Shown here: in pieces, positions 1 to 62,990 of the stretch
Numbering within the stretch: position 1 is the stretch's first letter
Layout: each line of letters starts with the position of its first letter
DNA from: Fibrobacteria bacterium
Lineage (GTDB): Bacteria; Fibrobacterota; Fibrobacteria; UBA11236
Direction: 5' to 3'
Assembly: GCA_050486505.1 (NCBI GenBank)
Contig: JBJHDK010000002.1
Span: 1,292-65,291 of the forward strand
Length of the DNA: 64,000 bases
Program-made: the position numbers and the translations under genes
Notes under the pieces: model-generated
The model's database searches: none
What the model saw: the letters and a program-made list of their open reading frames with translations, nothing else
What the model was told of the DNA's origin: nothing

Positions 1-1211
1 TGCGCGCGCGCGGCGGGATAAGTCGCCGATGTTTCGGACGAGGGGCGAGCCGTTGCGCGCTCGACACGGTTCCATGTTCCCGTGTCGTTCTGGAAGAGCG
101 CCTTAAACAAGCCGAGCAACAGGGCGTAGTTCATCGAGACGAAATAGAACGGGATCAACAGGAACTTGTGCCGGCGGGCCCGGGACTTGGCAAGGTAACC
201 GAGCGCGGAGAACACGTAGAATGCCACCTGCAAGACGAGAAGGGACGCGTAAAACAGCGAAGCGGCCGCCAGCACGGCATTGGCGGCCAATGCGACGAGC
301 AGCACGATCGGAGCGATCCACCGCAAGAACTTGTGCGAGAAGAAGCCGTAAGCCACCAAGGGGTGCAACGGGTTCAAAAGAGGAGCGTAGCGCCGAAGAA
401 GGTTGAAGTTGGCCTGGCTGATGCGGACCTTGCGGTGAAACTCACCGTACGTGTCGAGCGATGTCTCCTCGCTGCCGATTGCCTGGGGTTCGTAGACAGC
501 TGCCTTTCCGGCGCGCAGCACGCGCGTGGTGACGAAGAAGTCATCCATTACCTTGCAGGCAGTGGGGATCGGGTGAAAAAGCTCCTTGCGGATGGCGTAG
601 ATTCCGCCGTTGGCCCCGATGACGATGCCAAGCGCCCCTTCCTGCTTCTTGATCTCCGATTCCAGATTCCAGTAAATGCTCTCGCCGATACTGAGGGCCG
701 ATTCACCAGCGTCGTGAAGAATGAGGCGTCCGCAGACGCAGCCCGTGTCGGGATCTTCGAAATGAGCCAGCAACTTCTGCAACACGTTTTTCAGGAGCAT
801 CGTGTTCGCGTCGCAGAAGACGAGAATGTCTCCCTGGGCCGCCGGAACCAACCTGTTCAGGACAGCGGCCTTTCCCTCCCGCTGGGGGAACGCGAAGAGC
901 TTGACGTCGGGGGCATACTGGGCTGCGATGGCCTCGGTGCGGTCGCTGGATCCGTCGGACCCGATCAGGATTTCCAGCTTGGATCGGGGGTATTCGAGCT
1001 CGAAGCAATTCCGGATCTTTTCCTCGAGAATTTTCTCCTCGTTGTAGGCAGCGATGATGATCGAAACCTTCGGGAGCTCCCTCCCGCCTCCGGCAACCGG
1101 AGCCGCTCGACGCGAGGGGACGATGCTACGGAGTACCGGAAGGGAGAGAGGGTACAGGATGTAAGTGTGCAGCAAAAGCGCCACCGACACCCAGAAAACG
1201 ACCTCGATCAT
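1..1211 (-). CDS. Family 2 glycosyltransferase (partial; start codon at 1211-1209, C-terminus beyond window start)
   Basis: My reverse-strand translation from ATG 1211: MIEVVFWVSVALLLHTYILYPLSLPVLRSI...KVSIIIAAYNEEKILEEKIRNCFELEYP...GSDGSSD...VFCDANTML. This is a typical GT2 fold with N-terminal TM helix and D/DxD motifs. No in-frame stop down to position 1. Not in the ORF track because it has no stop; the + ORF 168..1310 is its antisense. Confidence 0.75.
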   Translation of the reverse strand, partial: MIEVVFWVSVALLLHTYILYPLSLPVLRSIVPSRRAAPVAGGGRELPKVSIIIAAYNEEKILEEKIRNCFELEYPRSKLEILIGSDGSSDRTEAIAAQYAPDVKLFAFPQREGKAAVLNRLVPAAQGDILVFCDANTMLLKNVLQKLLAHFEDPDTGCVCGRLILHDAGESALSIGESIYWNLESEIKKQEGALGIVIGANGGIYAIRKELFHPIPTACKVMDDFFVTTRVLRAGKAAVYEPQAIGSEETSLDTYGEFHRKVRISQANFNLLRRYAPLLNPLHPLVAYGFFSHKFLRWIAPIVLLVALAANAVLAAASLFYASLLVLQVAFYVFSALGYLAKSRARRHKFLLIPFYFVSMNYALLLGLFKALFQNDTGTWNRVERATARPSSETSATYPAARA

Positions 1212-14287: not shown

Positions 14288-14398
14288 GCCGGAAAGCATG
14301 GGGAACCCTGCCGGTTCCCCCTCCGTCGGGGTTTTCTTCACGGGGAACCCCCGAATCCCCCTGAAATTCTACCTTTGCCCGCTCTTCGGGCACCAGTA

Positions 14399-14475
14399 GC
14401 TCAGCTGGATAGAGCGTCGCCCTCCGAAGGCGAAGGTCACAGGTTCGACTCCTGTCTGGTGTACCACCTCACCCA
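14399..14475 (+). tRNA. tRNA-Arg (anticodon CCG)
   Basis: Folds by hand into a cloverleaf: acceptor GCACCAG/CTGGTGT, D-arm GCTC-AGCTGGATA-GAGC, anticodon loop CTCCGAA, T-arm ACAGG-TTCGACT-CCTGT, 3' ACCA. Confidence 0.85.
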
Positions 14476-14484
14476 TCCGCATCC

Positions 14485-14796
14485 TCATCGCGCCTCCCGC
14501 CGCCAGGCCAGGATCCACCCCGCATCGCGGTGGCGCACGATCGCGCGACCTGCAGCGATAGCCCGGCGCACTTCCGTGTCGCGGCGCTTCAGCCAGAGCT
14601 CCAGCCGGAGCGCCTCCGGCTTTCCCGACACCTTTCGCCTCCACACGCACTCCGCCGGACGGCGGGACGGCACCATGTACCGGGCGCCCTTTCCGGAGTT
14701 GTGCATCGCCAGACGGCGCTCCAGATCGTTCGTTACCCCGCAATAAAGGGAGCCGTCGCGGCAGCGCAGGAGGTAGACGATCCAGGGGGATTTCAT
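14485..14796 (-). CDS. GIY-YIG nuclease family protein (UPF0213-like)
   Basis: WIVYLLRCRDGSLYCGVTNDLERRLAMHNSGKGARY is a canonical GIY-YIG block; start taken at the internal Met of track ORF 14485..14874; lies immediately 3' of the tRNA-Arg. Confidence 0.75.
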   Translation of the reverse strand: MKSPWIVYLLRCRDGSLYCGVTNDLERRLAMHNSGKGARYMVPSRRPAECVWRRKVSGKPEALRLELWLKRRDTEVRRAIAAGRAIVRHRDAGWILAWRREAR

Positions 14797-15134
14797 GGGG
14801 TTCCGCCTCGAAACCCCTCTGCGGAGGGGCTGGAAGAATGAAAAACCCGGTTTCCGCTTTTTCCGAAATCGCACCGAAACGGTGTTCCGGTCCCGGGTTC
14901 AAATCGCCTTAACGCATTGAAAGAACAAATACTTATAAAACAAGCGGCCGGTTTCGGGATGCGCAAAACCCGGGCAGGGAGGGCACTTCCGGGCGCACCC
15001 CCGATTTTTCCTTGTGTTTTTTTTTCATTTAACACCTATCTTTTTCGTTGAGTCCTTTTGAAGTTCATGTGCCCTGTGTCCAGAGCCGCTCCATTTGGAT
15101 TTCACAATCCAACCCCCCCTCAAGGAAATAGTGT

Positions 15135-15434
15135 ATGAATCTGTTCGTCGGTAACCTCGCATGGGCCACGACCCAAGCGGATCTGGAAGCGGCTTTCGGC
15201 GCCTACGGTGAAGTGTCCTCTGCAAAGATCATGACGGATCGCGAAACGGGAAAGTCCCGCGGCTTCGCCTTCGTCGACATGCCCAATGACTCCGAGGCCC
15301 GCAAGGCCATCGAAGAGCTGAATGGCAAGGACCTCAAGGGTCGCGCCATCAACGTGAACGAAGCGCGTCCCCGCGAAGAGCGTCCGCGCTCCGGCGGCTT
15401 CGGCGGTGGCGACCGCGGCCCCCGTCGCTGGTAA
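15135..15434 (+). CDS. RNA-binding protein (RRM/RNP-1 domain, Gly/Arg-rich tail)
   Basis: RNP-2 LFVGNL and RNP-1 RGFAFV motifs; long AT-richer 5' leader. Confidence 0.9.
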   Translation: MNLFVGNLAWATTQADLEAAFGAYGEVSSAKIMTDRETGKSRGFAFVDMPNDSEARKAIEELNGKDLKGRAINVNEARPREERPRSGGFGGGDRGPRRW

Positions 15435-15449
15435 GCTTCGGAAGTCATC

Positions 15450-15488
15450 AAAAAAGAACCCGCCCAGAAGGGCGGGTTCTTTTTTTTG
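15450..15488 (+). terminator. Rho-independent terminator
   Basis: AAAAAAGAACCCGCCC agaa GGGCGGGTTCTTTTTTTT: GC stem plus U-tract. Confidence 0.85.
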
Positions 15489-15511
15489 TCCGTGCGCGGC
15501 GCGGAGGCGAA

Positions 15512-16648
15512 TCAGCGCACGGCGTACTTGGCCAGCGCTTCGGAAGCCGGAGAGGCCACCGGTTTGACGAGATACCGGATATCGGGCCACGTTCCGGTGA
15601 GAATCACGGCATATCCTTGGTCGACACCCGTGGCGACGTATGACGACATGTCGCCGCCGAAGGATTCTTCGGTGGCGAGGTCGCCCGTGTGCGTGCGTGT
15701 CGCCAAGTCGATCTTCTCCACGCCGCCTTCCAAGTCGCCGTAGCCGGCGACGCCGGCGATGTACCAGACACCATCATGAACGGACGCGGCAATCGGATTA
15801 CGAAAGTTCAGGGGAATGGTGTCGGTGATCGTGCGCGTGGCGGCGTCGATCACGAGCACCAGCGACGTGTCATTCGCTTGCCACTGGTGATCGAGGCGTT
15901 GCAGGGCGACGAAAACATTGCCGCCGTGCGCCGCGACAAGGGACATGCGCGGGACATTCGTCGAGGAGTCGCGTGAATACGCCGACAGGTCGATCGAATC
16001 CCGGGCACCGCCGTCGATGGCATCGGGATCAACGATCAGGAGGTGGGTGGAATTATAGCGCGGAATCCACGCCTTGCCGCCGGCGATGGCCACACCGTAG
16101 GGATTGGAGTTCGGCCCTGCCTGAACGTCCAGGGTGATGTTGCGGCCGGGACGATTTCCCTCGAATCCCGTCACGACGCCGATCGAGCGGTCGAGCAGAT
16201 AAACCCTGCCGTCCGCGGCGGCGACCGAGGGATCGGATCCGATCGACCCCACGCTCTGGCGGATGCGCCCCGCCACGGGATCGATGACGCTCACCCCGCC
16301 TTCCACGTAATCGGTTTCCGTGACGACGACGTGGCCATCCGCGGTGAACGCAAGCGAGGTAGGAGGCAGAAGCTGCGGATAGTAAGCCGTAATGATCCCG
16401 GTGGAAACATCCACAGCGGCCACACCGGGCTCCGACGCGTGGCGGTTCCCTGCATAGAGAATACCGTCGCGGTATGCGAGTCCGGAGACATCGGTCAGGC
16501 TGTCCACCGACTTTCCGACCCAGGCGGAATTCGTGCCCGAGACACCGGAATTCCCGGAAGGGCCGGAATCGAAAAGGTTGCAGGCGGAGAGCAACAGGGC
16601 GGTCGCCCCGAGAAGCCCGATGCGTGGAAGGGAGTGATGTGTTTTCAT
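15512..16648 (-). CDS. Beta-propeller surface lipoprotein, BtuG-like (cobalamin-binding partner of BtuB in Bacteroidota)
   Basis: Lipobox LLLSAC; repeated propeller-blade pattern; immediately downstream of the B12-riboswitch-controlled TonB receptor. Confidence 0.6.
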   Translation of the reverse strand: MKTHHSLPRIGLLGATALLLSACNLFDSGPSGNSGVSGTNSAWVGKSVDSLTDVSGLAYRDGILYAGNRHASEPGVAAVDVSTGIITAYYPQLLPPTSLAFTADGHVVVTETDYVEGGVSVIDPVAGRIRQSVGSIGSDPSVAAADGRVYLLDRSIGVVTGFEGNRPGRNITLDVQAGPNSNPYGVAIAGGKAWIPRYNSTHLLIVDPDAIDGGARDSIDLSAYSRDSSTNVPRMSLVAAHGGNVFVALQRLDHQWQANDTSLVLVIDAATRTITDTIPLNFRNPIAASVHDGVWYIAGVAGYGDLEGGVEKIDLATRTHTGDLATEESFGGDMSSYVATGVDQGYAVILTGTWPDIRYLVKPVASPASEALAKYAVR

Positions 16649-16657
16649 GTAGTTCCT

Positions 16658-18628
16658 TTACAGGTTGAGGGAAAGACCGAGCGACCAGGTCCGACCGCTT
16701 CGGGGACTGTAGACGAAGTCCCGATACTGTCGGTCGGTGAGATTTCGGACATCGAGGGAGAGTCTGATCGGGCCGCGATGCAAGGCACCGTGGGCACCCC
16801 ACTCCACCTCGGCATCCCGGCGCGATACGGGAAGGTTGGCTTCGCCCGGATACCATGGGCTCCGGAAACCGAGCGTCGGTCCCAGGCGCGCGCCCTCGAA
16901 CGGCTTGGCGAAGAATCCCGCGTGCGCCTCGACGGGACTGTGGTGCGCGGGGCGGTTTCCCGCGTGCAGTCCCTCGGTGATCTCCGCGCGCGACAGGGCG
17001 GCCGATGCCGCGGCTTCGAAACGGCGCGAATCCCATCCCCCTGAAAGTTCAAGACCGCGCACTTGGTAATCCGCACGGTTCTCGTACAGCAGAAAGGGAG
17101 AAGCGCCGCGCGCGCCAAGGCGGATCGGGTCGGTGTGAAGATTCCAGTATGCCTCCCAACGCGCGCTCCATGCCCCATGACCGAGGCCGTGCAGGATCGA
17201 AACCCCCGACGTTTCCTCCGGGCGCAGCGCTGTGTTCGCCTGCACGCCGTGGTTGTCGCCCAGCAATTCGCCGGAAGAAGGCGCGCGCTGCTCATGCTTG
17301 GCCACGGCCGCGAAGATCCCCACGGTCGTTTGCCATTGCAGTGCGGCACGCAATGTGGATGGCATGCGCGCCACCGAGACCCGATCTCCCTCGGGTGCGT
17401 CGGGATAGGCGCGCACCGCATCGGCATCGAAACGCACCGCCGCCGCCCGCGCCTCCAGCGTTGCGTTCAGGAACGGCGTGATGCCGTGATCCATGCGCCA
17501 CCCGAGCAGTGCCTCCAGCCTGCGCCCCGCGGGCGCGGACATGTTTTGCGAAAACGGCGTTTCGCGCGGATCGACGGTTTCGGCACGCAAATGAGCGTCC
17601 GTCGCGAAGGCCAGTGTCCCGGTCAGCGGAAGCCGCGCGCGCGCGTCCACCCCGGCGGATGTCGAGACCCGTTCCAACGCGTGCGAGAGATGGCCCAGCG
17701 TGCGACCGGGATCGCGATACGCGTCGGTGGCGCGATGCGCCTGCACGCCCGCCTCCCAGGACATGATCTCACCGTGATGCCGCGCGCGCCAGGCCCCCAT
17801 CCATGCCTCGCGCACCGTGTAGGCGCTTGATCCGGTGCCGAGCAACCCGGGATATTCCTTGCGCGATTCCAGCCAAAGCAGGGAGACGTCCTGGCCAAAA
17901 AACCCGTTTCCGGCGCGGGCCGAGGCACGGACCCCCCGGCTCCAGTACCCGTTGTTCCGCATGCGCGTGACACCGTCGTCGTCCGGATTGTGGATCGTGC
18001 CGTTGTCGTTGAACCATGGGTAATCGTTGCGGGCATGCTGGCCCTGCACACCGATCGACCATTGCGTCACCCCGTTTCCGCGAACGGTCACGGCGGACTC
18101 CGCGGTTCCATGCGAGCCACCCCGGGCGTGCGCTTCGGTTCGGTCGGCACCGTGGGAGGACAAATCGATGCGGGCCAGCATGCCGGAACCGACGACGTCG
18201 GGATCGACCCCGGTGCGCGCCTCCAGCGACGTGAACCAAAGCAACGGCCACTTGGAAAGATCGGGCGCGGGGTCGCCATCCTGGTTGAGGCGCATTCCGT
18301 CGACGTAGATCTCGATGGATGAGGCGCGCGCGCCGCGAAAACTCAATTCGGAGTAGCCGCCCAGCCCGCCCTGCCGGCGCACGCGAAAACCCGGCAACGA
18401 AGCGATCGCATCCTCAAGGGTCGCGAAACGGCGCAGGGCCTCGCCCTCGATGCGATGCGTGTCGGGTGAGGAGGACTCACTGCTGCGGCCGTACGCCTCC
18501 GTTCCCGGCAACTCGAGCGCTTCGGGCGTGACGCCATCGTCCGCGGCGACGGAAACCGCAAGGACAAACGGCACGGCGCGGGCGAAGGTCCGCGCAAAGA
18601 TCCGCTTTCCCGTAGGGACGTGCGGCAT
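16658..18628 (-). CDS. btuB: TonB-dependent outer-membrane receptor, BtuB-like (cobalamin)
   Basis: Plug and barrel motifs; C-terminal ...SLGLSLNL; start at internal Met MPHV (RBS AAGGAAGG upstream) rather than the track start 18709, which falls inside a palindrome; cobalamin riboswitch upstream. Confidence 0.8.
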   Translation of the reverse strand: MPHVPTGKRIFARTFARAVPFVLAVSVAADDGVTPEALELPGTEAYGRSSESSSPDTHRIEGEALRRFATLEDAIASLPGFRVRRQGGLGGYSELSFRGARASSIEIYVDGMRLNQDGDPAPDLSKWPLLWFTSLEARTGVDPDVVGSGMLARIDLSSHGADRTEAHARGGSHGTAESAVTVRGNGVTQWSIGVQGQHARNDYPWFNDNGTIHNPDDDGVTRMRNNGYWSRGVRASARAGNGFFGQDVSLLWLESRKEYPGLLGTGSSAYTVREAWMGAWRARHHGEIMSWEAGVQAHRATDAYRDPGRTLGHLSHALERVSTSAGVDARARLPLTGTLAFATDAHLRAETVDPRETPFSQNMSAPAGRRLEALLGWRMDHGITPFLNATLEARAAAVRFDADAVRAYPDAPEGDRVSVARMPSTLRAALQWQTTVGIFAAVAKHEQRAPSSGELLGDNHGVQANTALRPEETSGVSILHGLGHGAWSARWEAYWNLHTDPIRLGARGASPFLLYENRADYQVRGLELSGGWDSRRFEAAASAALSRAEITEGLHAGNRPAHHSPVEAHAGFFAKPFEGARLGPTLGFRSPWYPGEANLPVSRRDAEVEWGAHGALHRGPIRLSLDVRNLTDRQYRDFVYSPRSGRTWSLGLSLNL

Positions 18629-18691
18629 GATTCCTTCCTTCCGCGGGGCTGGGCCGCGGAACGATTGTCTGCGTCTGTCGAGGGGGCGGGC

Positions 18692-18719
18692 GTAGGGGCA
18701 AATAATCATTTGCCCCTAC
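18692..18719. repeat. 28-bp palindrome copy 1 (GTAGGGGCAAATAATCATTTGCCCCTAC), extended by flanking GGGCGGGC/GCCCGCCC
   Basis: Read directly; lies in the btuB 5' leader between the riboswitch aptamer and the start codon; near-identical copy at 62963-62990. Confidence 0.8.
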
Positions 18720-18804
18720 ATCGCCCGCCCTCGTCCCGAAGAGCAGCGCGTGAACCCGCAGGTGAGTCTTCTGGCTTGCGGCGGGAACCCCTGTTGGGGG
18801 GATC

Positions 18805-18985
18805 CGGAAGTCTTCCGCCTTCCCGCCCGGCGCCCCGTTCCCCGAAGGGGGGGGATGGCCTGGACAGTGGCTGGCGCGCGCAGTTGCGGGCGCCGGGAAA
18901 ACATCAACCGCTTACAGCGACGAGCTCGCTCCCGATTCGCACGGGATTCCTCGTTATGCCCTTCCGAACCGTTCGGAGGGCTCCC
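18805..18985 (-). ncRNA. Cobalamin (adenosylcobalamin) riboswitch
   Basis: The minus strand reads ...AGGAATCCCGTGCGAATCGGGAGC...GCTGTAAGCGG...GCAACTG...GCCACTG...GGGAAGGC. This matches E. coli btuB leader blocks (AGGGAAUCCAGUGCGAAUCUGGAGCUGAC...GCAGCGGUAAGG) plus the B12 box GCCACTG and GGGAAGGC. Sits upstream of a TonB receptor. Confidence 0.8.
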
Positions 18986-19107
18986 TGTGAGCGAATGGAA
19001 TAGTAGTCAATGCGGATAGCGGGGCGTCAAACGGGCGACCCCACGGGTCGCCCGTACATGAATCGATGCCGAAGGAATGTAGGGCCGAGCCGCTGGCTCG
19101 CCCGAAA

Positions 19108-20655
19108 TCAACGTGCCCGCAGCGCCCGCAGGTCTGACCGCCCCTGATGCTGGATCATGAACGCGATCTGCTCGCCGGCCTCCATCTCCCGAATCGCGTT
19201 CGAAAGCTGGCGCGCGTCGCGGACCGGACGGAAGTTGGGATCCTGACGCCGCTTGAAATGCGTGATCAGCATTCCCTCGCGCAAGCCGTTCTCGGCGGCG
19301 GAAGAGCCGTCCATGACTTCCAGAACGACCACGCCCGCTGCTTCGGGCGCGAGGTTGAAACGCTGGCGCGACGTCGCGTCGGGGGCGTCGAATCTCATCC
19401 CGAGCTTGCCCGAACTATAGCCGCCCCGGGTATCCTCCCCTTCAGGTAAGGACGGCCCGTCGACATCATCTCCTTCCTCGCCAGGTCTCGCCCCGATCTT
19501 CGCGTTGATGCGCGTCTTTTTTCCATCGCGCCAAAGCTCGACAGGATAGCTCTCATTCGGGCGCAGATCCGCGACGAGGTTGCGCAGGTGGGACGCGTCC
19601 TGGATCTCCGACCCGTCGATGGTGAGAATGATGTCGCCCGTGCGGATGCCGGCGCGCGCCGCCGGCGAGTTCGGAACGACCTCGCGCACGAGGGCACCGT
19701 GCAGCCGCTCGAGGCCGAGCGCCCCGGCGAGGTTCTCGTCGACGTTGTCGATGGCGACGCCGAGGTACCCGCGCGTCACGCGACCGTCGTAGATCAGGTC
19801 CTCGGCGACCTTGATCGCCATGTTGATGGGAATCGCGAAGCTGACGCCCATGTAGCCGCCGGTTCGCGTGTAAATGGCGGAGTTGATGCCCACGACCTCG
19901 CCGCGCAGGTTGACCAAGGGGCCGCCGGAGTTTCCGGGGTTCACCGCCGCATCGGTCTGGATGAAGTTCTGGTAGGAATCCGGGCCGCCGATGCGGTCGC
20001 GGCGCCCCTTCGCAGACACGATGCCCGCGGTCACGGTGTTCTGGAGGGCGAAGGGGTTGCCGATGGCCAGCACGCGCTCGCCGATGCGGACCTTGTCAGC
20101 GTCGCCGAATGCCAGTGGGTGGAGTTCGCCGCGCGGCGCATCGATCTTCAGCACGGCAACGTCGGTCTGGCGATCGATCCCCACGATGCGCGCTTCGTAG
20201 CTCTTGCGGTTGGGAAAGCCGACCTTCACGATGTCGGCGCCCTCGAGGACGTGCGCATTGGTAAACACGTATCCGTCACGGGAAACCACGAAACCCGAGC
20301 CGCCGCCCAGCGGGATGTTGCGGCCCGGTGCGCGTTCCTCCGGCATGCGGGGCTGGGGAATTCCGAAGAAGTCGAAGAACGGGTTGTGTTGCTGGCGTTG
20401 CTGTTGCGGCGTCCAGCGCCGCTCCGTGGTGATCGAGACCACGCCCGGCGTGACCGCATCGACGACCTTGACATAGAGATCGTTGTACTCGTTCACCCGC
20501 CGGGGGTCGGTCTGGGCCAAAGCCCCCTTGCCCAGCTCCACGCTGCCGCGGGCAGGGCGGGCGTCCTTGTCGCCTTGTGCCACGGCACAGGTTGCGGCAA
20601 AGACCACGCCGGCAAGCCCCAATGCTACGCGTCTCGTCCAATTCGGCTGAAACAT
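19108..20655 (-). CDS. Periplasmic serine endoprotease, DegP/HtrA (Do) family, two PDZ domains
   Basis: Signal peptide; catalytic blocks TNAHV, GNSGGPLVN; two PDZ-like regions. Confidence 0.9.
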   Translation of the reverse strand: MFQPNWTRRVALGLAGVVFAATCAVAQGDKDARPARGSVELGKGALAQTDPRRVNEYNDLYVKVVDAVTPGVVSITTERRWTPQQQRQQHNPFFDFFGIPQPRMPEERAPGRNIPLGGGSGFVVSRDGYVFTNAHVLEGADIVKVGFPNRKSYEARIVGIDRQTDVAVLKIDAPRGELHPLAFGDADKVRIGERVLAIGNPFALQNTVTAGIVSAKGRRDRIGGPDSYQNFIQTDAAVNPGNSGGPLVNLRGEVVGINSAIYTRTGGYMGVSFAIPINMAIKVAEDLIYDGRVTRGYLGVAIDNVDENLAGALGLERLHGALVREVVPNSPAARAGIRTGDIILTIDGSEIQDASHLRNLVADLRPNESYPVELWRDGKKTRINAKIGARPGEEGDDVDGPSLPEGEDTRGGYSSGKLGMRFDAPDATSRQRFNLAPEAAGVVVLEVMDGSSAAENGLREGMLITHFKRRQDPNFRPVRDARQLSNAIREMEAGEQIAFMIQHQGRSDLRALRAR

Positions 20656-20814
20656 GGCGAATCCTTTCGTGAATCGCCCGATATTTTACAAAGCCGGGCC
20701 GGATTTTCCATGAATCCGCCCGTTCCGGGGCGTGGCCCGTCCGATCGGAAGGCCATTCCCGGAGGGCCCTTTAGCTACCTTTGCCGTCCCAAAACCAACT
20801 TCAAAGGAACAAGC

Positions 20815-22233
20815 ATGGCACAAGCGGACATCGGACTCATCGGCCTCGCGGTGATGGGTGAAAACCTCGTCCTCAACATGGAAAGCCGGGGCTACACGGT
20901 TGCAGTCTACAACCGCACCACCTCCAAGGTGGATGATCTCGTCAATGGACGCGGCAAGGGAAAGAAGCTCGTGGGCGCTCACTCCATCGAGGAGTTCGTC
21001 GGATCCCTCAAGTCGCCCCGCAAGATCATGATGATGGTCAAGGCCGGTCCCGCCGTGGATGCTCTCATCGAGCAACTCATCCCCCATCTCGACAAGGGCG
21101 ACATCCTCATCGACGGCGGCAACAGCTACTTCCCCGACAGCATCCGCCGCACGAAGGATCTTGAGGCCAAGGGCTTCCGTTTCCTGGGCGTGGGTGTCTC
21201 CGGCGGCGAAGAAGGCGCCCTGAAGGGGCCCTCCATCATGCCGGGCGGTTCGGACAGCGCGTGGGAAGATGTCCGCCCGATTTTCCAGGCCATCGCCGCC
21301 AAGGTCGGCCCCAAGGCCGACATCCCCTGCTGCGAATGGGTCGGCGCCGACGGCGCAGGCCACTATGTGAAGATGGTGCACAACGGCATCGAGTACGGCG
21401 ACATGCAGCTGATCTGCGAGGCCTACGCGATGATGAAGCACCTGCTGGGCATGACCCCGCCCGAGATGGCCGAGGTCTTCACCAAGTGGAACGAGGGGCC
21501 CCTGGACTCCTACCTCATCGAAATCACCCGCGACATCCTGAAGAAGAAGGATCCCGAGAGCGGCAAGTGGATGGTGGACGTTATCCTCGACAAGGCCGGC
21601 CAGAAGGGCACAGGCAAGTGGACCTCGCAGAACGCCCTCGACCTCGGCATTCCCATCCCCACCATGATGGAAGCCGTCGTGGCCCGCAGCCTCTCCGCGC
21701 TCAAGGACGAGCGCGTCGCCGCCGGCCGCCGCTTCGCCGCGCCCGCGCTGCGCACCCCCGAGGATCGCGAGAAATTCCTGCAGGCGATTCACGACGCGCT
21801 CTACGCCTCCAAGATCATGTCGTACGCGCAGGGTTTCCAGCTGCTGCGCGCCGCGGCGACGGAGTACAAGTGGGATCTCAACTACGGTTCGGTCGCCCTG
21901 CTTTGGCGCGGCGGCTGCATCATCCGTGCCCGCTTCCTCGAGGAGATCAAAAAGGCCTTCGACGCCGAGCCGGGCCTCAAGAACCTGATCCTTGCGCCGT
22001 ACTTCACCGACGTGATCCAGAAAAGCGAGTCGAACTGGCGGCGCGCCGTTTCCGAGGCGGTGCTCTCGGGCATCGCGGTACCCGCATTCACCTCCGCGCT
22101 GGCCTACTACGACGGTTACCGCAGCCCCGAACTCCCGGCGAACCTGCTCCAGGCGCAGCGCGACTACTTCGGCGCGCACACCTACGAGCGCATCGACAAG
22201 CCCGGATCCTTCCACACGGAGTGGCTGGGGTAA
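20815..22233 (+). CDS. gnd: 6-phosphogluconate dehydrogenase (decarboxylating)
   Basis: GLIGLAVMGENLVLN Rossmann N-terminus; full-length 473 aa with conserved Gnd blocks; start at internal ATG of the 881-aa track ORF. Confidence 0.95.
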   Translation: MAQADIGLIGLAVMGENLVLNMESRGYTVAVYNRTTSKVDDLVNGRGKGKKLVGAHSIEEFVGSLKSPRKIMMMVKAGPAVDALIEQLIPHLDKGDILIDGGNSYFPDSIRRTKDLEAKGFRFLGVGVSGGEEGALKGPSIMPGGSDSAWEDVRPIFQAIAAKVGPKADIPCCEWVGADGAGHYVKMVHNGIEYGDMQLICEAYAMMKHLLGMTPPEMAEVFTKWNEGPLDSYLIEITRDILKKKDPESGKWMVDVILDKAGQKGTGKWTSQNALDLGIPIPTMMEAVVARSLSALKDERVAAGRRFAAPALRTPEDREKFLQAIHDALYASKIMSYAQGFQLLRAAATEYKWDLNYGSVALLWRGGCIIRARFLEEIKKAFDAEPGLKNLILAPYFTDVIQKSESNWRRAVSEAVLSGIAVPAFTSALAYYDGYRSPELPANLLQAQRDYFGAHTYERIDKPGSFHTEWLG

Positions 22234-24276: not shown

Positions 24277-24486
24277 TGTAACACGAAACCGCTTCGTTCG
24301 CCTTCCGTTTTCACGGAATCGGAACCCCGGGGGCAAAACTGCCGGAGATCGGGCCGAAAACCGTCCTCCCGTCCGCCTCCCTGATTGATTCTGCCCGCCG
24401 GTCTAGGTAAGTTTCCCCGACAGCAAGGGGATACGCCGGCCCGGGACTTTTCACCCCGGAGCGCCCGATCCTCCGGAGACCGCCGC

Positions 24487-26058
24487 ATGAAAGTCCTCTT
24501 CCTGAACCCTCCCTATTTCCCGATGTTTTCACGGGAATCCCGCAGCCCGAGCGTGACCAAGTCCAGCACCCTGTACTGGCCCATGTTCATGTGCTACGCC
24601 GCAGGTTGCGTCGAGGAGGACGGGAACGAATTGCTGGTGCTCGACTCCCCGGCCATGGACCTGGATCTCGCCGCCACGCTCGAAAAGGTGAAGGCCTTCA
24701 AGCCCGACTTTGCCGTCCTGAACACCTCGACACCCTCCATCAACAACGACATGCGCGTCGGCAAGGCGATCAAGGAAGCCGTGGGATGCCCCATTGCCAT
24801 GATGGGAACGCACGCCACCGCAGAACCGATCGAGATCCTCGAGCGCGAGCCCGCCATCGACTACGTCATCATGGGCGAGGCGGACTACACCGCCCGTGAG
24901 CTGGTGCGGCACCTGCGCGGCGACGGTCCCGACGCGATCGCGAAGGTCGCGGGAATCGCCTACCGCACGGGGGACGACTTCCATAAAACCCCCGAGCGCC
25001 CGAAGATCGAGGATCTCGACTCCCTGCCGTGGGTCAGCAAGGTGTACCGCAAGCACCTGTTCTCCTGCTACAAGCGTTACTTCTACGGGGCGAACATCAA
25101 CCCCCTCATCGTCATCCTTTCGGGACGCGGGTGTCCGTTCCGCTGCACCTACTGCGTCATCCCCCAGACGTTGACCGGCCACACCTACCGCAAGCGCTCC
25201 ATCGGCGATGTCGTGGACGAACTGGAATACATCAAATCCGCGTTCCCGGATCTGGGCGAAGTGTTCTTCGAGGACGACACCTTCACGGCCCACCCCACCC
25301 GCACCGCCGAACTTTGCGACGAGATCGTCAGGCGCGGGTTGAAGATCACCTGGTCCGCCAACGCCCGCGCCGACGTGAAGCCGGATGTCTTGTTGAAGAT
25401 GAAGCAGGCAGGGTGCCGGGAACTCTGCGTGGGCTTCGAATCCTGTTCCACCGATGTGCTCAAGAACGTCAAGAAGGGTCTGGCCAACGGCATGTCGGAA
25501 CGCTTCATGGAAGGCGCCAACAAGGCGGGCATCCTCATCCACGGCTGCTTCATGGTGGGGAACCTCGGCGACACCCCGGAAACCCTGCAGGCCACGCTCG
25601 AGTTCGCGAAAAAACTGAACCCGAATACCGCACAGTTCTATCCCATCATGGCCTATCCCGGAACCTCCGCCTACGAAGAGGCACGGGCGCGCGGCGAACT
25701 CGCTTCCGAAGACTACGACAAATGGCTCGACAAGGACGGCCAGCACAACACCACCGTCATCCGCAAAGGGCTGACCTCGCAGCAGCTGGTTGATTTCTGC
25801 GACCGCGCGCGGCGCGAATTCTACCTCCGTCCCCGCTACGTGTGGAAGCAGGCGATGATGGCCCTGACCAACAGCCGCGAGCGCTACCGCGTCTTCCGCG
25901 GCGCGGGCACCCTCTTCCGGCATCTCTTCCGCAAGCACGGAGCGCCGCAGGCGGCCAGCGAATACTCCGGGCGCCCCAAGGAGCCCTCGGCCCGCGAATT
26001 GACGGCCGCCCAGAAGGTGTCCTCCACCGAACGGCAAACTGTTTCCACGGACGCGTGA
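24487..26058 (+). CDS. B12-binding-domain radical SAM protein (class B radical SAM)
   Basis: N-terminal cobalamin-binding-like domain, then CPFRCTYC (CX3CX2C) radical SAM cluster motif; 523 aa from the internal ATG of the track ORF. Confidence 0.85.
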   Translation: MKVLFLNPPYFPMFSRESRSPSVTKSSTLYWPMFMCYAAGCVEEDGNELLVLDSPAMDLDLAATLEKVKAFKPDFAVLNTSTPSINNDMRVGKAIKEAVGCPIAMMGTHATAEPIEILEREPAIDYVIMGEADYTARELVRHLRGDGPDAIAKVAGIAYRTGDDFHKTPERPKIEDLDSLPWVSKVYRKHLFSCYKRYFYGANINPLIVILSGRGCPFRCTYCVIPQTLTGHTYRKRSIGDVVDELEYIKSAFPDLGEVFFEDDTFTAHPTRTAELCDEIVRRGLKITWSANARADVKPDVLLKMKQAGCRELCVGFESCSTDVLKNVKKGLANGMSERFMEGANKAGILIHGCFMVGNLGDTPETLQATLEFAKKLNPNTAQFYPIMAYPGTSAYEEARARGELASEDYDKWLDKDGQHNTTVIRKGLTSQQLVDFCDRARREFYLRPRYVWKQAMMALTNSRERYRVFRGAGTLFRHLFRKHGAPQAASEYSGRPKEPSARELTAAQKVSSTERQTVSTDA

Positions 26059-62060: not shown

Positions 62061-62950
62061 ACGGCTTCAACTACAAGACGCAGTCCGAGGCCGTCGCGGA
62101 ACGTTTTCGCAAGCTCAAGGAACGCCCCGTCGTCCTGGAAGTCAACGGCCTGCAAAAGAGTTTCAGCGGAATGCATGTGCTGAAGGAAGTGAACCTCGAG
62201 GTGCGGCGACGGGAGTTCCTCTGCGTGGTCGGCGCATCGGGGTGCGGCAAGTCGACACTCGTGCGTCTTCTCGCCGGGCTTGAGGATCCGGACGGCGGCG
62301 AGGTGCTGCTCGACGGCAAGCCCGCGCGCGGGCCCTGCGCCTCACGGGGAATGGTCTTTCAGGGTTACACGCTGTTTCCATGGTTGAACGTGCGTCGCAA
62401 CATCATGTTCGGCCCGCGCATGCAGGGCAAGGGACGCGAGGCTTCCGCCGAGGAGGCCGACCAGTGGATCCAGCTCGTGGGGCTTTCCGATTTCGCGGAC
62501 GCTTACCCGCACCAGCTTTCGGGAGGCATGAAGCAGCGCGTCGCGATCGCGCGGGCCCTGGCAAACTCACCGCGCATCCTGCTCATGGACGAACCCTTCG
62601 GAGCCCTCGACGCGCAGACGCGCGCACAAATGCAGCGCAACCTGCTCCACATCTGGCGCAACGCCGACGTCACCATCGTCTTCATCACGCACGATCTCGA
62701 CGAGGCCATCTACCTCGCGGACCGCATCCTCGTGCTGCGCCCCAAGCCCGGCCCCGGACGCGAGAGCATCGCGGAACGCATCGAAGTCTCCGTCCCGCGA
62801 CCGCGCACCCCGGAACAGTTCGCCTCACCCGAGTTCGTCGCCACGCGTCGCCGCCTCGAAGAGTGGATCCATCCCGCCGGATCGGAGAACACGAACGAGG
62901 ACAACCTGCCCCGCCTGCGCCTCACCCGCGTGGGCGACGAGGTGGAATGA
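62057..62950 (+). CDS. ABC transporter ATP-binding protein
   Basis: Walker [10 protein letters not shown], signature LSGGMKQR, Walker B LLMDEPF; GTGA overlap with the permease. Confidence 0.85.
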
Positions 62951-62962
62951 CAGGGGACCGAT

Positions 62963-62990
62963 GTAGGGGCAAATGATCATTTGCCCCTAC
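62963..62990. repeat. 28-bp perfect palindrome copy 2 (GTAGGGGCAAATGATCATTTGCCCCTAC)
   Basis: Perfect self-complement; lies between the ABC ATPase stop and the DUF1989 gene; differs by 1 nt from the copy at 18692-18719. Confidence 0.8.

What the first reader, a model, noticed from the sequence alone, without database searches (positions are those of the whole stretch)
15512..18985. Cobalamin riboswitch, BtuB-like TonB receptor and BtuG-like propeller lipoprotein form one vitamin B12 capture unit
The minus strand upstream of the receptor carries blocks near-identical to the E. coli btuB leader (AGGAAUCCCGUGCGAAUCGGGAGC; GCUGUAAGCGG; GCAACUG; B12 box GCCACUG; GGGAAGGC). The gene after the receptor is a lipobox beta-propeller protein, the arrangement described for the BtuG surface B12-binding protein in Bacteroides. 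The same window also encodes a B12-dependent class B radical SAM enzyme (24487-26058). The expression platform contains the unusual 28-bp palindrome described separately.
Basis: partly seen in the sequence, partly recalled or inferred. Interest (0 to 1): 0.6.

Follow-up and report, generated by a model that had tools for sequence, protein, structure and literature searches.

The report
B12 riboswitch-controlled receptor plus BtuG-like lipoprotein
A vitamin B12-sensing RNA switch in an uncultured Fibrobacteria genome controls a two-gene outer-membrane unit, a TonB-dependent receptor and a lipoprotein that is a distant, circularly permuted relative of the Bacteroides B12-capturing protein BtuG, so this uptake design probably exists outside the Bacteroidetes.

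Summary
Rfam finds a full-length cobalamin riboswitch at 18744-19003 (-), 67.6 bits against a threshold of 31.5. It is followed by a 656-aa TonB-dependent receptor (16658-18628) and, 9 nt later, a 378-aa lipobox protein (15512-16648) modelled as a 7-bladed propeller (pLDDT 90.9). A bidirectional terminator closes the operon.

All 10 related Fibrobacteria loci with upstream DNA keep riboswitch, receptor and propeller. One places B12-independent nrdAB in the same operon.

The lipoprotein fails Pfam's BtuG family (DUF5074) threshold, and fold searches rank YncE above BtuG. Profile comparisons still link it to BtuG through a large uncharacterised family (HMMER 1e-40 to 1e-67, then hhalign 99.5%, full length). 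The Fibrobacteria type carries BtuG's last blade at its N-terminus. Several BtuG2 corrin-contact positions map to conserved matching residues.

In four of four wider-family loci with a receptor directly upstream and enough upstream DNA, a cobalamin riboswitch is present.

Published work calls BtuG and lipoprotein-capped transporters exclusive to Bacteroidetes. This is therefore a new variant of a known system. B12 binding and surface exposure are untested.

The "28-bp palindrome" is a dispersed REP-like element at the tip of a variable hairpin. The claimed near-identity to the E. coli btuB leader was not confirmed.

The parts
18744..19003 (-). Cobalamin riboswitch aptamer (RF00174), full length, with a long peripheral extension
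   Evidence: cmscan 67.6 bits against gathering score 31.5, E 1.5e-14, model 1-189/189. The same element lies upstream of the receptor homologue (in L010, upstream of nrdAB-receptor) in 10 of 10 related loci with upstream DNA.
18669..18747 (-). Long stem-loop of the expression platform. The outer stem is GCUGCUCUUCGGG.../...CGACAGACGCAG, the inner stem GAGGGCGGGCG/CGCCCGCCCCCUC. The tip is variable.
   Evidence: MFE folds of the window and 9 related leaders show the same tiered hairpin with unrelated tip sequences. L008 lacks it entirely. MAFFT/RNAalifold could not align the variable part.
18692..18719 (-). 28-nt perfect palindrome GTAGGGGCAAATGATTATTTGCCCCTAC at the tip of the long hairpin; a dispersed REP-like element
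   Evidence: 12+12 nt inverted repeat. A second copy lies at 62963-62990. It is absent from 21 related loci. The exact 28-mer occurs in two unrelated IMG/VR contigs.
18641..18659 (-). Small conserved hairpin CCGCGG-N7-CCGCGG that abuts the Shine-Dalgarno sequence
   Evidence: The RNAalifold consensus retains it in 9 leaders, and 4 of its 8 pairs keep pairing through changes on both sides in at least one sequence. It is present even in L008, which lacks the long hairpin.
18631..18642 (-). Shine-Dalgarno sequence GGAAGGAAGGAA, 2 nt upstream of the receptor ATG
   Evidence: Sequence. The GGAGGAAGG-type motif is conserved before the start codon in the related leaders.
16658..18628 (-). TonB-dependent outer-membrane receptor, 656 aa, inferred cobalamin/corrinoid transporter
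   Evidence: Pfam Plug E 2.6e-9. The best PDB sequence hit of the family profile is E. coli BtuB, E 3.7e-12. AF2 model: plug plus barrel, pLDDT 73.7. Foldseek: E. coli BtuB at rank 3 and B. thetaiotaomicron BtuB1 with TM 0.71/0.75 among other TonB-dependent transporters.
15512..16648 (-). Lipoprotein, 378 aa, 7-bladed beta-propeller; a remote, circularly permuted homologue of BtuG. Its start lies 9 nt after the receptor stop.
   Evidence: Lipobox LLSA|C. AF2 pLDDT 90.9. hhalign against BtuG 96.2%. Wider family against BtuG 99.5%, E 4e-22, full length. Permutation. Gene spacing.
15450..15487 (.). Bidirectional intrinsic terminator AAAAAAAAGAACCCGCCC-UUCU-GGGCGGGUUCUUUUUU, closing the operon and the convergent RRM gene
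   Evidence: Read directly in the sequence. The consensus scan missed it, possibly because the A/T runs extend the stem (my inference).
24385..26058 (+). B12-binding radical SAM enzyme (HpnJ-like). This is context: a likely B12 consumer, not part of the operon.
   Evidence: PF02310 E 1.1e-10 plus PF04055 E 3.5e-20. TIGR03471 HpnJ 368.7 bits, below the 577.6 cutoff.

Best explanation
This is a B12-repressed, two-gene outer-membrane corrinoid scavenging unit in a Fibrobacteria bacterium. When intracellular (adenosyl)cobalamin is high, it binds the leader aptamer and expression of the operon is shut down. Shutdown most likely acts at translation initiation, through the conserved hairpin next to the Shine-Dalgarno sequence. 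When B12 is scarce, the cell makes a TonB-dependent receptor and a lipid-anchored 7-bladed propeller. The propeller is a distant, circularly permuted BtuG homologue. By analogy with Bacteroides BtuBG, it sits on the receptor's extracellular face, captures corrinoids with high affinity and hands them to the barrel for TonB-driven import. Shown here: the riboswitch, the operon structure, its conservation, the folds, and the remote homology to BtuG. Inferred: OFF-switch logic, the substrate, surface exposure, and the lid mechanism.
For: RF00174 scores 67.6 bits. The genes lie 9 nt apart, with a terminator after the second. Riboswitch, receptor and propeller are conserved in 10 of 10 Fibrobacteria loci with upstream DNA. 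In L010 the same riboswitch first drives the B12-independent ribonucleotide reductase nrdAB and then the receptor and propeller, which is the classic set of genes needed when B12 is low. The best PDB sequence hit of the receptor profile is BtuB. BtuG homologues from Wexler 2018 fall in Pfam DUF5074, 12 of 13. DUF5074 is the only whole-domain propeller family (besides the 28-residue NHL repeat) hit recurrently by the window's family (21 of 48 at E<=1, best 8e-7) and by the wider family (19 of 100 at E<=0.01, best 2.9e-10). Wider family against BtuG: hhalign 99.5%, E 4e-22, 319-348 columns running from the lipobox Cys to the C-terminus. Window family against wider family: HMMER 1e-40 to 1e-67. 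BtuG2 ligand-contact positions map to conserved like residues: F58 to Y114, D90 to D139, S131 to N182, W194 to W256, Q/N219 to N284, Y239 to Y303 (contact list from PMC13616437 and PMC10404256). Wider-family loci with receptor then propeller carry the riboswitch in 4 of 4 cases with upstream DNA (L012, L016, L020, L024). Two such loci also carry BtuF/BtuCD-type genes and one carries a cobalamin adenosyltransferase. Some wider-family members carry T9SS sorting domains or FlgD_ig domains, which points to a cell-surface location.
Confidence: 0.72

Rival explanations
1. The operon is B12-regulated and imports B12, but the propeller lipoprotein faces the periplasm or acts as an accessory or assembly factor. 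It is not a surface lid that captures B12.
For: No surface-export signal is known for Fibrobacterota. The fold is closest to YncE, and BamB-like propellers also appear among the hits. The permutation moves the lipid tether to a different blade than in BtuG.
Against: Full-length homology of the wider family to surface-exposed BtuG. Pocket-position residues are conserved. T9SS C-terminal sorting domains occur in 9 of 100 wider-family members. A conserved C-(D/N)-L-(F/L)-(D/E) motif follows the lipidated Cys, with acidic residues as in the Bacteroidetes export signal.
Confidence: 0.13
2. The riboswitch-controlled receptor and propeller import something other than a corrinoid that is needed when B12 is low, for example cobalt or another metabolite.
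For: Cobalamin riboswitches also control cobalt transporters and B12-independent isozymes (established knowledge). L010 puts nrdAB in the same operon. The receptor does not meet the BtuB equivalog cutoffs. The top Foldseek hit is PqqU.
Against: The best sequence hit of the receptor profile is BtuB. The partner is a BtuG homologue with conserved corrin-contact positions. Wider-family loci include BtuF/BtuCD-type genes and a cobalamin adenosyltransferase.
Confidence: 0.1
3. The lipoprotein is a generic YVTN/YncE-type propeller with no specific relation to BtuG, and its position next to the receptor has no functional meaning.
Against: The gene pair is conserved in 10 of 10 loci. Stop and start are 9 nt apart. 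DUF5074 is the only recurrent whole-domain Pfam propeller hit, whereas the YNCE family is hit by one member. The match to BtuG is 99.5%, full length and collinear. The PDB depositors themselves label BtuG as 'YncE family protein'.
Confidence: 0.04

Closest known systems
Bacteroides thetaiotaomicron BtuB-BtuG complexes (BtuB2G2, BtuB1G1, BtuB3G3; PDB 8BMX, 8BLW, 8P97/8P98; Wexler 2018 PMC6143338; Abellon-Ruiz 2023 PMC10404256)
   Same: Cobalamin riboswitch, then a TonB-dependent receptor, then an adjacent lipobox 7-bladed propeller. There is profile-level homology of the propeller to BtuG. Several corrin-contact positions are conserved. A flexible linker of about 20 residues follows the lipidated Cys.
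   Different: The phylum is Fibrobacterota, not Bacteroidota. The propeller falls below the Pfam DUF5074 threshold. One blade (the C-terminal blade in BtuG) is encoded at the N-terminus. No BtuH, BtuJ or BtuK accessory proteins and no btuFCD genes are in the operon. The receptor barrel is not recognised by the Pfam barrel model. No binding or structural data exist.
E. coli btuB with its cobalamin riboswitch leader
   Same: An RF00174 aptamer precedes a TonB-dependent receptor gene. E. coli BtuB is the best PDB sequence hit for the receptor's plug and first barrel strands (E 3.7e-12).
   Different: There is no lipoprotein partner in E. coli. There is no blastn similarity between the leaders. 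The receptor scores 29-35 bits on the BtuB equivalog models, against cutoffs of 600-836. The expression platform is different.
E. coli YncE / archaeal YVTN propellers (PDB 3VGZ, 1L0Q)
   Different: E. coli YncE is described in its PDB entry as a DNA-binding propeller; that it is periplasmic, has no lipid anchor and has no B12 or TonB-receptor context is from memory and was not tested here. The similarity is at the level of the repeat class, which also includes BtuG.
SusCD-type lipoprotein-capped TonB-dependent transporters and XusAB (PDB 9GBC)
   Same: The general design is a TonB-dependent barrel plus a surface lipoprotein that captures the ligand. XusA is among the top receptor hits.
   Different: SusD is a helical TPR-like lid (from memory). 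XusB binds siderophores (the hit description calls XusA a siderophore transporter). Neither is under B12 control, and both are known only from Bacteroidota.

Membership tests
Cobalamin riboswitch (Rfam RF00174) | Covariance-model score at or above the gathering threshold over the full aptamer, including the B12 box | tested here: met
   67.6 bits against 31.5, model 1-189/189, B12 box GCCACUG at 18865-18871.
Cobalamin riboswitch (Rfam RF00174) | Ligand-dependent control of the downstream gene | not testable with these tools
   Only the anatomy of the platform was seen: a conserved hairpin abutting the Shine-Dalgarno sequence. No covariation was found between L5 and the platform, because L5 is invariant.
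TonB-dependent transporter | N-terminal plug domain | tested here: met
   PF07715, 38 bits against cutoff 23.9.
TonB-dependent transporter | 22-strand beta-barrel | tested here: met
   The Pfam barrel model does not hit the window protein, but 3 of 33 family members carry PF00593. The AF2 model shows a plug plus roughly 22 strands, pTM 0.75. Foldseek E 1e-25 to TonB-dependent transporters, TM about 0.7.
TonB-dependent transporter | TonB box near the mature N-terminus | tested here: inconclusive
   Family consensus DTLDLPxA; the window has TPEALELPG (residues 34-42), with L40 and P41 nearly invariant. The resemblance to the BtuB box DTLVVTA is from memory.
BtuB (vitamin B12 receptor equivalogs TIGR01779 / NF007926) | Full-length score above the curated equivalog cutoff | tested here: not met
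   29.2 bits against 599.7, and 35.1 bits against 836; plug region only.
BtuB (functional sense) | Gene directly downstream of a cobalamin riboswitch | tested here: met
   Window, and 9 of 10 related loci directly; in the tenth (L010) via nrdAB.
BtuG (Pfam PF16819 DUF5074) | Score above the Pfam gathering threshold | tested here: not met
   Window protein 11.2 bits, E 0.19, cutoff 27.2. In the family, 21 of 48 members give sub-threshold or weak hits, best 8e-7. True BtuGs: 12 of 13 hit, BT1954 at 73.6 bits.
BtuG (homology) | Full-length homology to characterised BtuG proteins | tested here: met
   Direct hhalign 96.2-96.8%, E about 1e-9, 161-166 columns. Via the wider family: 99.5%, E 4e-22, 319-348 columns. 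Collinear except for one permuted blade.
BtuG | Seven-bladed beta-propeller | tested here: met
BtuG | Lipoprotein signal (lipobox Cys) and surface export | tested here: inconclusive
   A lipobox is present in 45 of 48 family members, and the motif C-(D/N)-L-(F/L)-(D/E) is conserved. The Bacteroidetes export signal is not defined for Fibrobacterota, so exposure is untestable here.
BtuG | Encoded next to btuB in a riboswitch-controlled operon | tested here: met
   9-nt gap in the window. 10 of 10 Fibrobacteria loci. 4 of 4 wider-family loci with upstream DNA.
BtuG | High-affinity corrinoid binding through conserved polar and aromatic residues on one propeller face | tested here: inconclusive
   The transitive alignment maps 6 to 7 of 11 contact or pocket positions to conserved like residues and 3 to 4 to unlike residues. 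No coordinates were available to check that they line one face. Binding was not measured.
BtuG | Stable lid complex with the receptor | not testable with these tools
   No multimer prediction is offered, and the structure tool returns no coordinates or PAE.

The most novel reading that the evidence does not exclude
BtuG-type lipoprotein-capped B12 transporters are not exclusive to Bacteroidota. A large environmental family of BtuG homologues is invisible to Pfam thresholds: 2,962 cluster representatives at E<=1e-3 and 313 at E<=1e-30. These proteins partner TonB receptors behind cobalamin riboswitches, in Fibrobacterota and in metagenomic contigs whose taxa could not be named here. The Fibrobacteria branch is a natural circular permutant, so the lipid tether and presumed hinge attach to a different blade. 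This would give a second geometry for the same 'pedal-bin' capture mechanism.
Probability: 0.55. Interest if true: 0.55.

Novelty: new variant of a known kind. Interest (0 to 1): 0.45.

Why it matters
[quoted passage not shown] No paper in the searched library mentions both BtuG and Fibrobacter. If the Fibrobacteria pair works like BtuBG, high-affinity surface capture of corrinoids is an older and more widespread strategy, found in soil, sediment and other non-gut habitats, rather than a gut adaptation. The family would also give annotators a handle on thousands of 'hypothetical' or 'YncE-like' propellers. The circular permutation offers a natural experiment on how the lid is hinged to its barrel. 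The riboswitch and receptor themselves are ordinary.

Tried and rejected
1. The search for related loci with the lipoprotein alignment failed because it has no sufficiently conserved stretch. The receptor alignment was used instead.

3. Foldseek of the receptor model does not separate transporters by substrate.

4. I first read the direct hhalign match (window 100-322 against BtuG2 44-212) as out of register. The domain layout of the wider family showed that it reflects the permuted blade. The direct A1-to-A3 residue map drifts by one blade after the first blade and was discarded in favour of the transitive map.

5. Permuting A1 did not improve its direct score against BtuG (65.9 against 80.0). 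It did improve against the wider family: 506.8 against 471.1, and 303 against 258 aligned columns.

6. A kissing-loop hypothesis between L5 and the platform could not be tested. L5 is invariant (GCGAGCUCGUCGC) in all loci and is not complementary to the small hairpin loop.

7. RNAalifold could not align the variable long hairpin.

8. 'orf156' (15120-15590, -) appeared conserved downstream. It is the antisense of an RRM RNA-binding protein gene at 15135-15434 (+) and is not a third operon gene.

9. The sigma-70 promoter scan found nothing, and the terminator scan missed the obvious terminator.

10. The third homologous-protein search (with A5) and the listing of cluster members gave no organism names for the wider family. 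Its taxonomic range beyond Fibrobacteria is therefore not established.

11. No btuF or btuCD genes were found in the window.
Full report
**What is there.**

The minus strand of 15450-19003 carries one compact transcription unit.
- A full-length cobalamin riboswitch aptamer lies at 18744-19003 (RF00174, 67.6 bits, gathering score 31.5, E 1.5e-14, model 1-189/189).
- It follows the intrinsic terminator of the upstream htrA/degP gene (19108-20655).
- After the aptamer come a long tiered hairpin (18669-18747), a small hairpin CCGCGG-N7-CCGCGG (18641-18659), the Shine-Dalgarno sequence GGAAGGAAGGAA (18631-18642) and the receptor start at 18628.
- The receptor gene (16658-18628, 656 aa) ends 9 nt before the lipoprotein gene (15512-16648, 378 aa), which has its own AAGGAA Shine-Dalgarno sequence.
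- A perfect bidirectional terminator (15450-15487) closes the unit and also serves a convergent RRM RNA-binding protein gene (15135-15434, +).
- The operon therefore has two genes. The apparent third conserved ORF (15120-15590, -) is the antisense of the RRM gene.
- Flanking genes are unrelated housekeeping genes, and no btuF or btuCD gene lies in the window.
- The B12-binding radical SAM gene at 24385-26058 is real and HpnJ-like.

**Organism and conservation.**

Both proteins have relatives only in uncultured Fibrobacteria/Fibrobacterota MAGs and metagenomes, at 43-66% identity.
- In 11 related loci, every one with upstream DNA (10 of 10) has an RF00174 aptamer of 64-93 bits in front of the receptor homologue.
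- Every locus with downstream DNA (10 of 10) has the propeller gene right after the receptor.
- In L010 the riboswitch first drives class I ribonucleotide reductase nrdA-nrdB and then the receptor and propeller. This groups a B12-independent isozyme with the pair under one B12 sensor, which is the expected logic for genes needed when B12 is scarce.

**The receptor.**

- Pfam sees only the plug.
- The BtuB equivalog models score 29-35 bits against cutoffs of 600-836, so the receptor is not a BtuB orthologue by NCBI's criteria.
- A profile of 33 family members finds E. coli BtuB as its best solved relative (E 3.7e-12, plug and first strands). The B. thetaiotaomicron BtuB1-3 proteins score lower.
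- The AF2 model (pLDDT 73.7, pTM 0.75) is a plug inside a barrel of about 22 strands.
- Foldseek matches TonB-dependent transporters in general. PqqU is first, E. coli BtuB third, and B. thetaiotaomicron BtuB1 has TM 0.71/0.75. This confirms the class but not the substrate.
- The substrate assignment rests on the riboswitch and on the partner protein.

**The lipoprotein.**

- It has a lipobox (LLSA|C23), a Gly/Ser-rich linker of about 20 residues, and a confidently modelled 7-bladed propeller (pLDDT 90.9).
- No Pfam or NCBIfam family is reached.
- On these tests alone, 'BtuG-like' would be no more than 'a propeller'.

**Testing the BtuG link properly.**

I took 13 BtuG sequences from Table S2 of Wexler et al. 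2018.
- Twelve of the 13 fall in Pfam PF16819 (DUF5074), which is therefore the BtuG family in Pfam.
- The Fibrobacteria family profile aligns to the BtuG profile with 96.2% probability, E 2.7e-9.
- DUF5074 is the only whole-domain propeller family its members hit recurrently; the 28-residue NHL repeat model is hit about as often (22 of 48). DUF5074 is hit by 21 of 48 members at E<=1, best 8e-7, while the window protein reaches only E 0.19.
- An exhaustive HMMER search found a much larger family: 2,962 representatives at E<=1e-3 and 313 at E<=1e-30.
- A sample of 100 of these again hits DUF5074 (19 members, best 2.9e-10). Many carry FlgD_ig domains or T9SS sorting domains, which mark cell-surface proteins.
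- This wider family aligns to BtuG over its full length, from the lipobox Cys to the C-terminus, at 99.5% probability and E 4e-22.
- The chain window family, wider family, BtuG is thus well supported as homology.

**Circular permutation.**

- The wider family and BtuG begin with the blade that corresponds to window residues of about 100 onward.
- In all 35 wider-family members that give two HMM stretches, positions ~90-365 of the window-family model come first and positions ~40-105 follow at the C-terminus.
- Moving window residues 40-95 to the C-terminus lengthens the alignment to the wider family from 258 to 303 columns and raises the score from 471 to 507.
- The Fibrobacteria-type protein, and some relatives such as P0094, P0103 and P0251, therefore carry BtuG's last blade at the N-terminus. 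The lipid tether is attached to a different blade.
- This probably explains in part why sequential structure aligners under-rank BtuG.

**Ligand site.**

I used the BtuG2 contact residues listed in PMC13616437 and PMC10404256 and the transitive alignment.
- Positions that map to conserved like residues: F58 to Y114 (aromatic in 46 of 46), D90 to D139 (46 of 46), S131 to N182 (N in 45 of 46; N in 3 BtuGs), W194 to W256 (Y or W in 46 of 46), Q/N219 to N284 (45 of 46), and Y239 to Y303 (44 of 46).
- Q93 maps to a position that is Asn in 35 of 46 family members, but Pro in the window protein.
- E55 and N107 map to unlike residues.
- This is consistent with a retained corrinoid pocket. It is an inference, because I had no coordinates to verify that these residues share one face.

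**Context of the wider family.**

- In four of four loci where a receptor directly precedes the propeller and upstream DNA is available, an RF00174 aptamer is present. L012 scores 52 bits and also carries a cobalamin adenosyltransferase. L016 scores 83 bits and has BtuF/BtuCD-type genes nearby. L020 scores 80 bits and L024 71 bits.
- A fifth locus, without DNA available, reads FecCD, ABC ATPase, receptor, propeller, periplasmic binding protein.
- Two loci with tandem paralogues ahead of a receptor have no riboswitch, so not every member need be B12-related.

**Expression platform and the palindrome.**

- Related leaders share the outer and inner stems of a long hairpin, but their tips differ in sequence and length. 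L008 lacks the long hairpin altogether yet keeps the small hairpin and Shine-Dalgarno sequence.
- The small hairpin keeps pairing through changes on both sides at 4 of its 8 pairs.
- I therefore place the regulatory decision at the small hairpin and ribosome-binding site, as translational control. The exact switch is unresolved.
- L5 is invariant, so no covariation test of a kissing loop was possible. The long hairpin has no U-tract in the window.
It is not specific to the riboswitch. A near-identical copy lies at 62963-62990, just after another gene. It is absent from 21 related loci.
- The exact 28-mer occurs after stop codons in two unrelated viral or prophage contigs, one of them measured at lower GC.
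- Its GTAG heads resemble REP elements, a resemblance I recall from memory.

**Comparison with what is known, and verdict.**

- The riboswitch and receptor are ordinary.
- The partner protein is the interesting part. The literature states that BtuG, and lipoprotein-capped TonB transporters generally, are exclusive to Bacteroidetes (PMC6143338, PMC10404256). No paper in the searched library mentions both BtuG and Fibrobacter. DUF5074 is named in only two unrelated papers.
- The evidence here supports a distant, permuted BtuG homologue working with a riboswitch-controlled receptor in Fibrobacterota, embedded in a large unannotated family.
- It works like BtuBG (confidence about 0.7). It is not a member of DUF5074 by Pfam's threshold, and the receptor is not a BtuB equivalog.
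- I rate it a new variant of a known kind, with interest 0.45.
- Binding, surface exposure and complex geometry need experiments or multimer modelling.

Noticed in passing
window 18692-18719 and 62963-62990; L022 3670-3697; L023 1642-1669: The 28-nt perfect palindrome GTAGGGGCAAATGAT(Y)ATTTGCCCCTAC occurs twice in the window: once at the riboswitch hairpin tip and once just after the stop of a + strand gene ending at 62950. The exact 28-mer also occurs in two unrelated IMG/VR contigs (L022 measured at 48-60% GC, against 67% for the aptamer region), each time right after a stop codon and near other hairpins. It is absent from the 21 related loci. Its GTAG heads make it look like a REP-type dispersed element, and its exact conservation across unrelated genomes is odd.
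   Followed up: partly
L010 590-8060: In one Fibrobacteria relative, the single cobalamin riboswitch precedes nrdA (969 aa, ATP-cone plus RNR barrel) and nrdB (379 aa), followed directly by the receptor and the propeller. A B12-independent ribonucleotide reductase and the B12 scavenging pair thus share one B12-repressed operon.
   Followed up: yes
window 15512-16648; wider family P0097-P0239: The Fibrobacteria-type propeller is a circular permutant of the BtuG-order family. BtuG's C-terminal blade is encoded at the N-terminus, which moves the lipid tether to another blade. Both gene orders occur behind cobalamin riboswitches: L012 and L020 are the permuted type, L016 and L024 the BtuG order.
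   Followed up: yes
window 15512-16648, residues 23-29, and 45 of 48 family members: A conserved motif C-(D/N)-L-(F/L)-(D/E)-x-(D) follows the lipidated cysteine directly. It could be a surface-sorting signal or a hinge that docks onto the receptor. No such signal is defined for Fibrobacterota.
   Followed up: partly
window 15120-15590 (-) versus 15135-15434 (+): A 156-aa minus-strand ORF that appears conserved in relatives by tblastn is the antisense of a highly conserved 99-aa RRM-type RNA-binding protein gene (PF00076, E 4.6e-25). The two convergent units share one bidirectional terminator at 15450-15487.
   Followed up: yes
L016 3344-3391 (+) and 3431-3476 (-): Two copies of the Acido-Lenti-1 RNA motif (RF01687, 46.6 and 57.8 bits) lie on opposite strands, just upstream of the cobalamin riboswitch of a wider-family receptor-propeller locus.
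   Followed up: no
L018 6001-9352, L019 1272-7251, L021 1795-6607: Some wider-family propellers occur as two or three tandem paralogues upstream of a Plug-domain receptor, without any cobalamin riboswitch. In L018 they lie next to a sigma-70 factor and a caspase-like peptidase. This may be a branch with a different ligand.
   Followed up: partly
window 14390-14463 (+) and 14485-14874 (-): A tRNA (68.9 bits; the anticodon arm in the cmscan alignment reads ...CCUCCGAAGG..., suggesting tRNA-Arg(CCG), which I did not verify) lies beside a small GIY-YIG domain protein gene. The 177-aa ORF listed there runs over the tRNA and is probably over-extended.
   Followed up: partly
window 19588-22233 (+) versus 19108-20655 (-) and 20686-22215 (-): An 881-aa + strand ORF with coding-like GC3 overlaps the well-supported htrA/degP gene on the minus strand, and also a 509-aa minus-strand ORF with no family hit. 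In this 67% GC genome, long antisense ORFs are common and should not be trusted.
   Followed up: no
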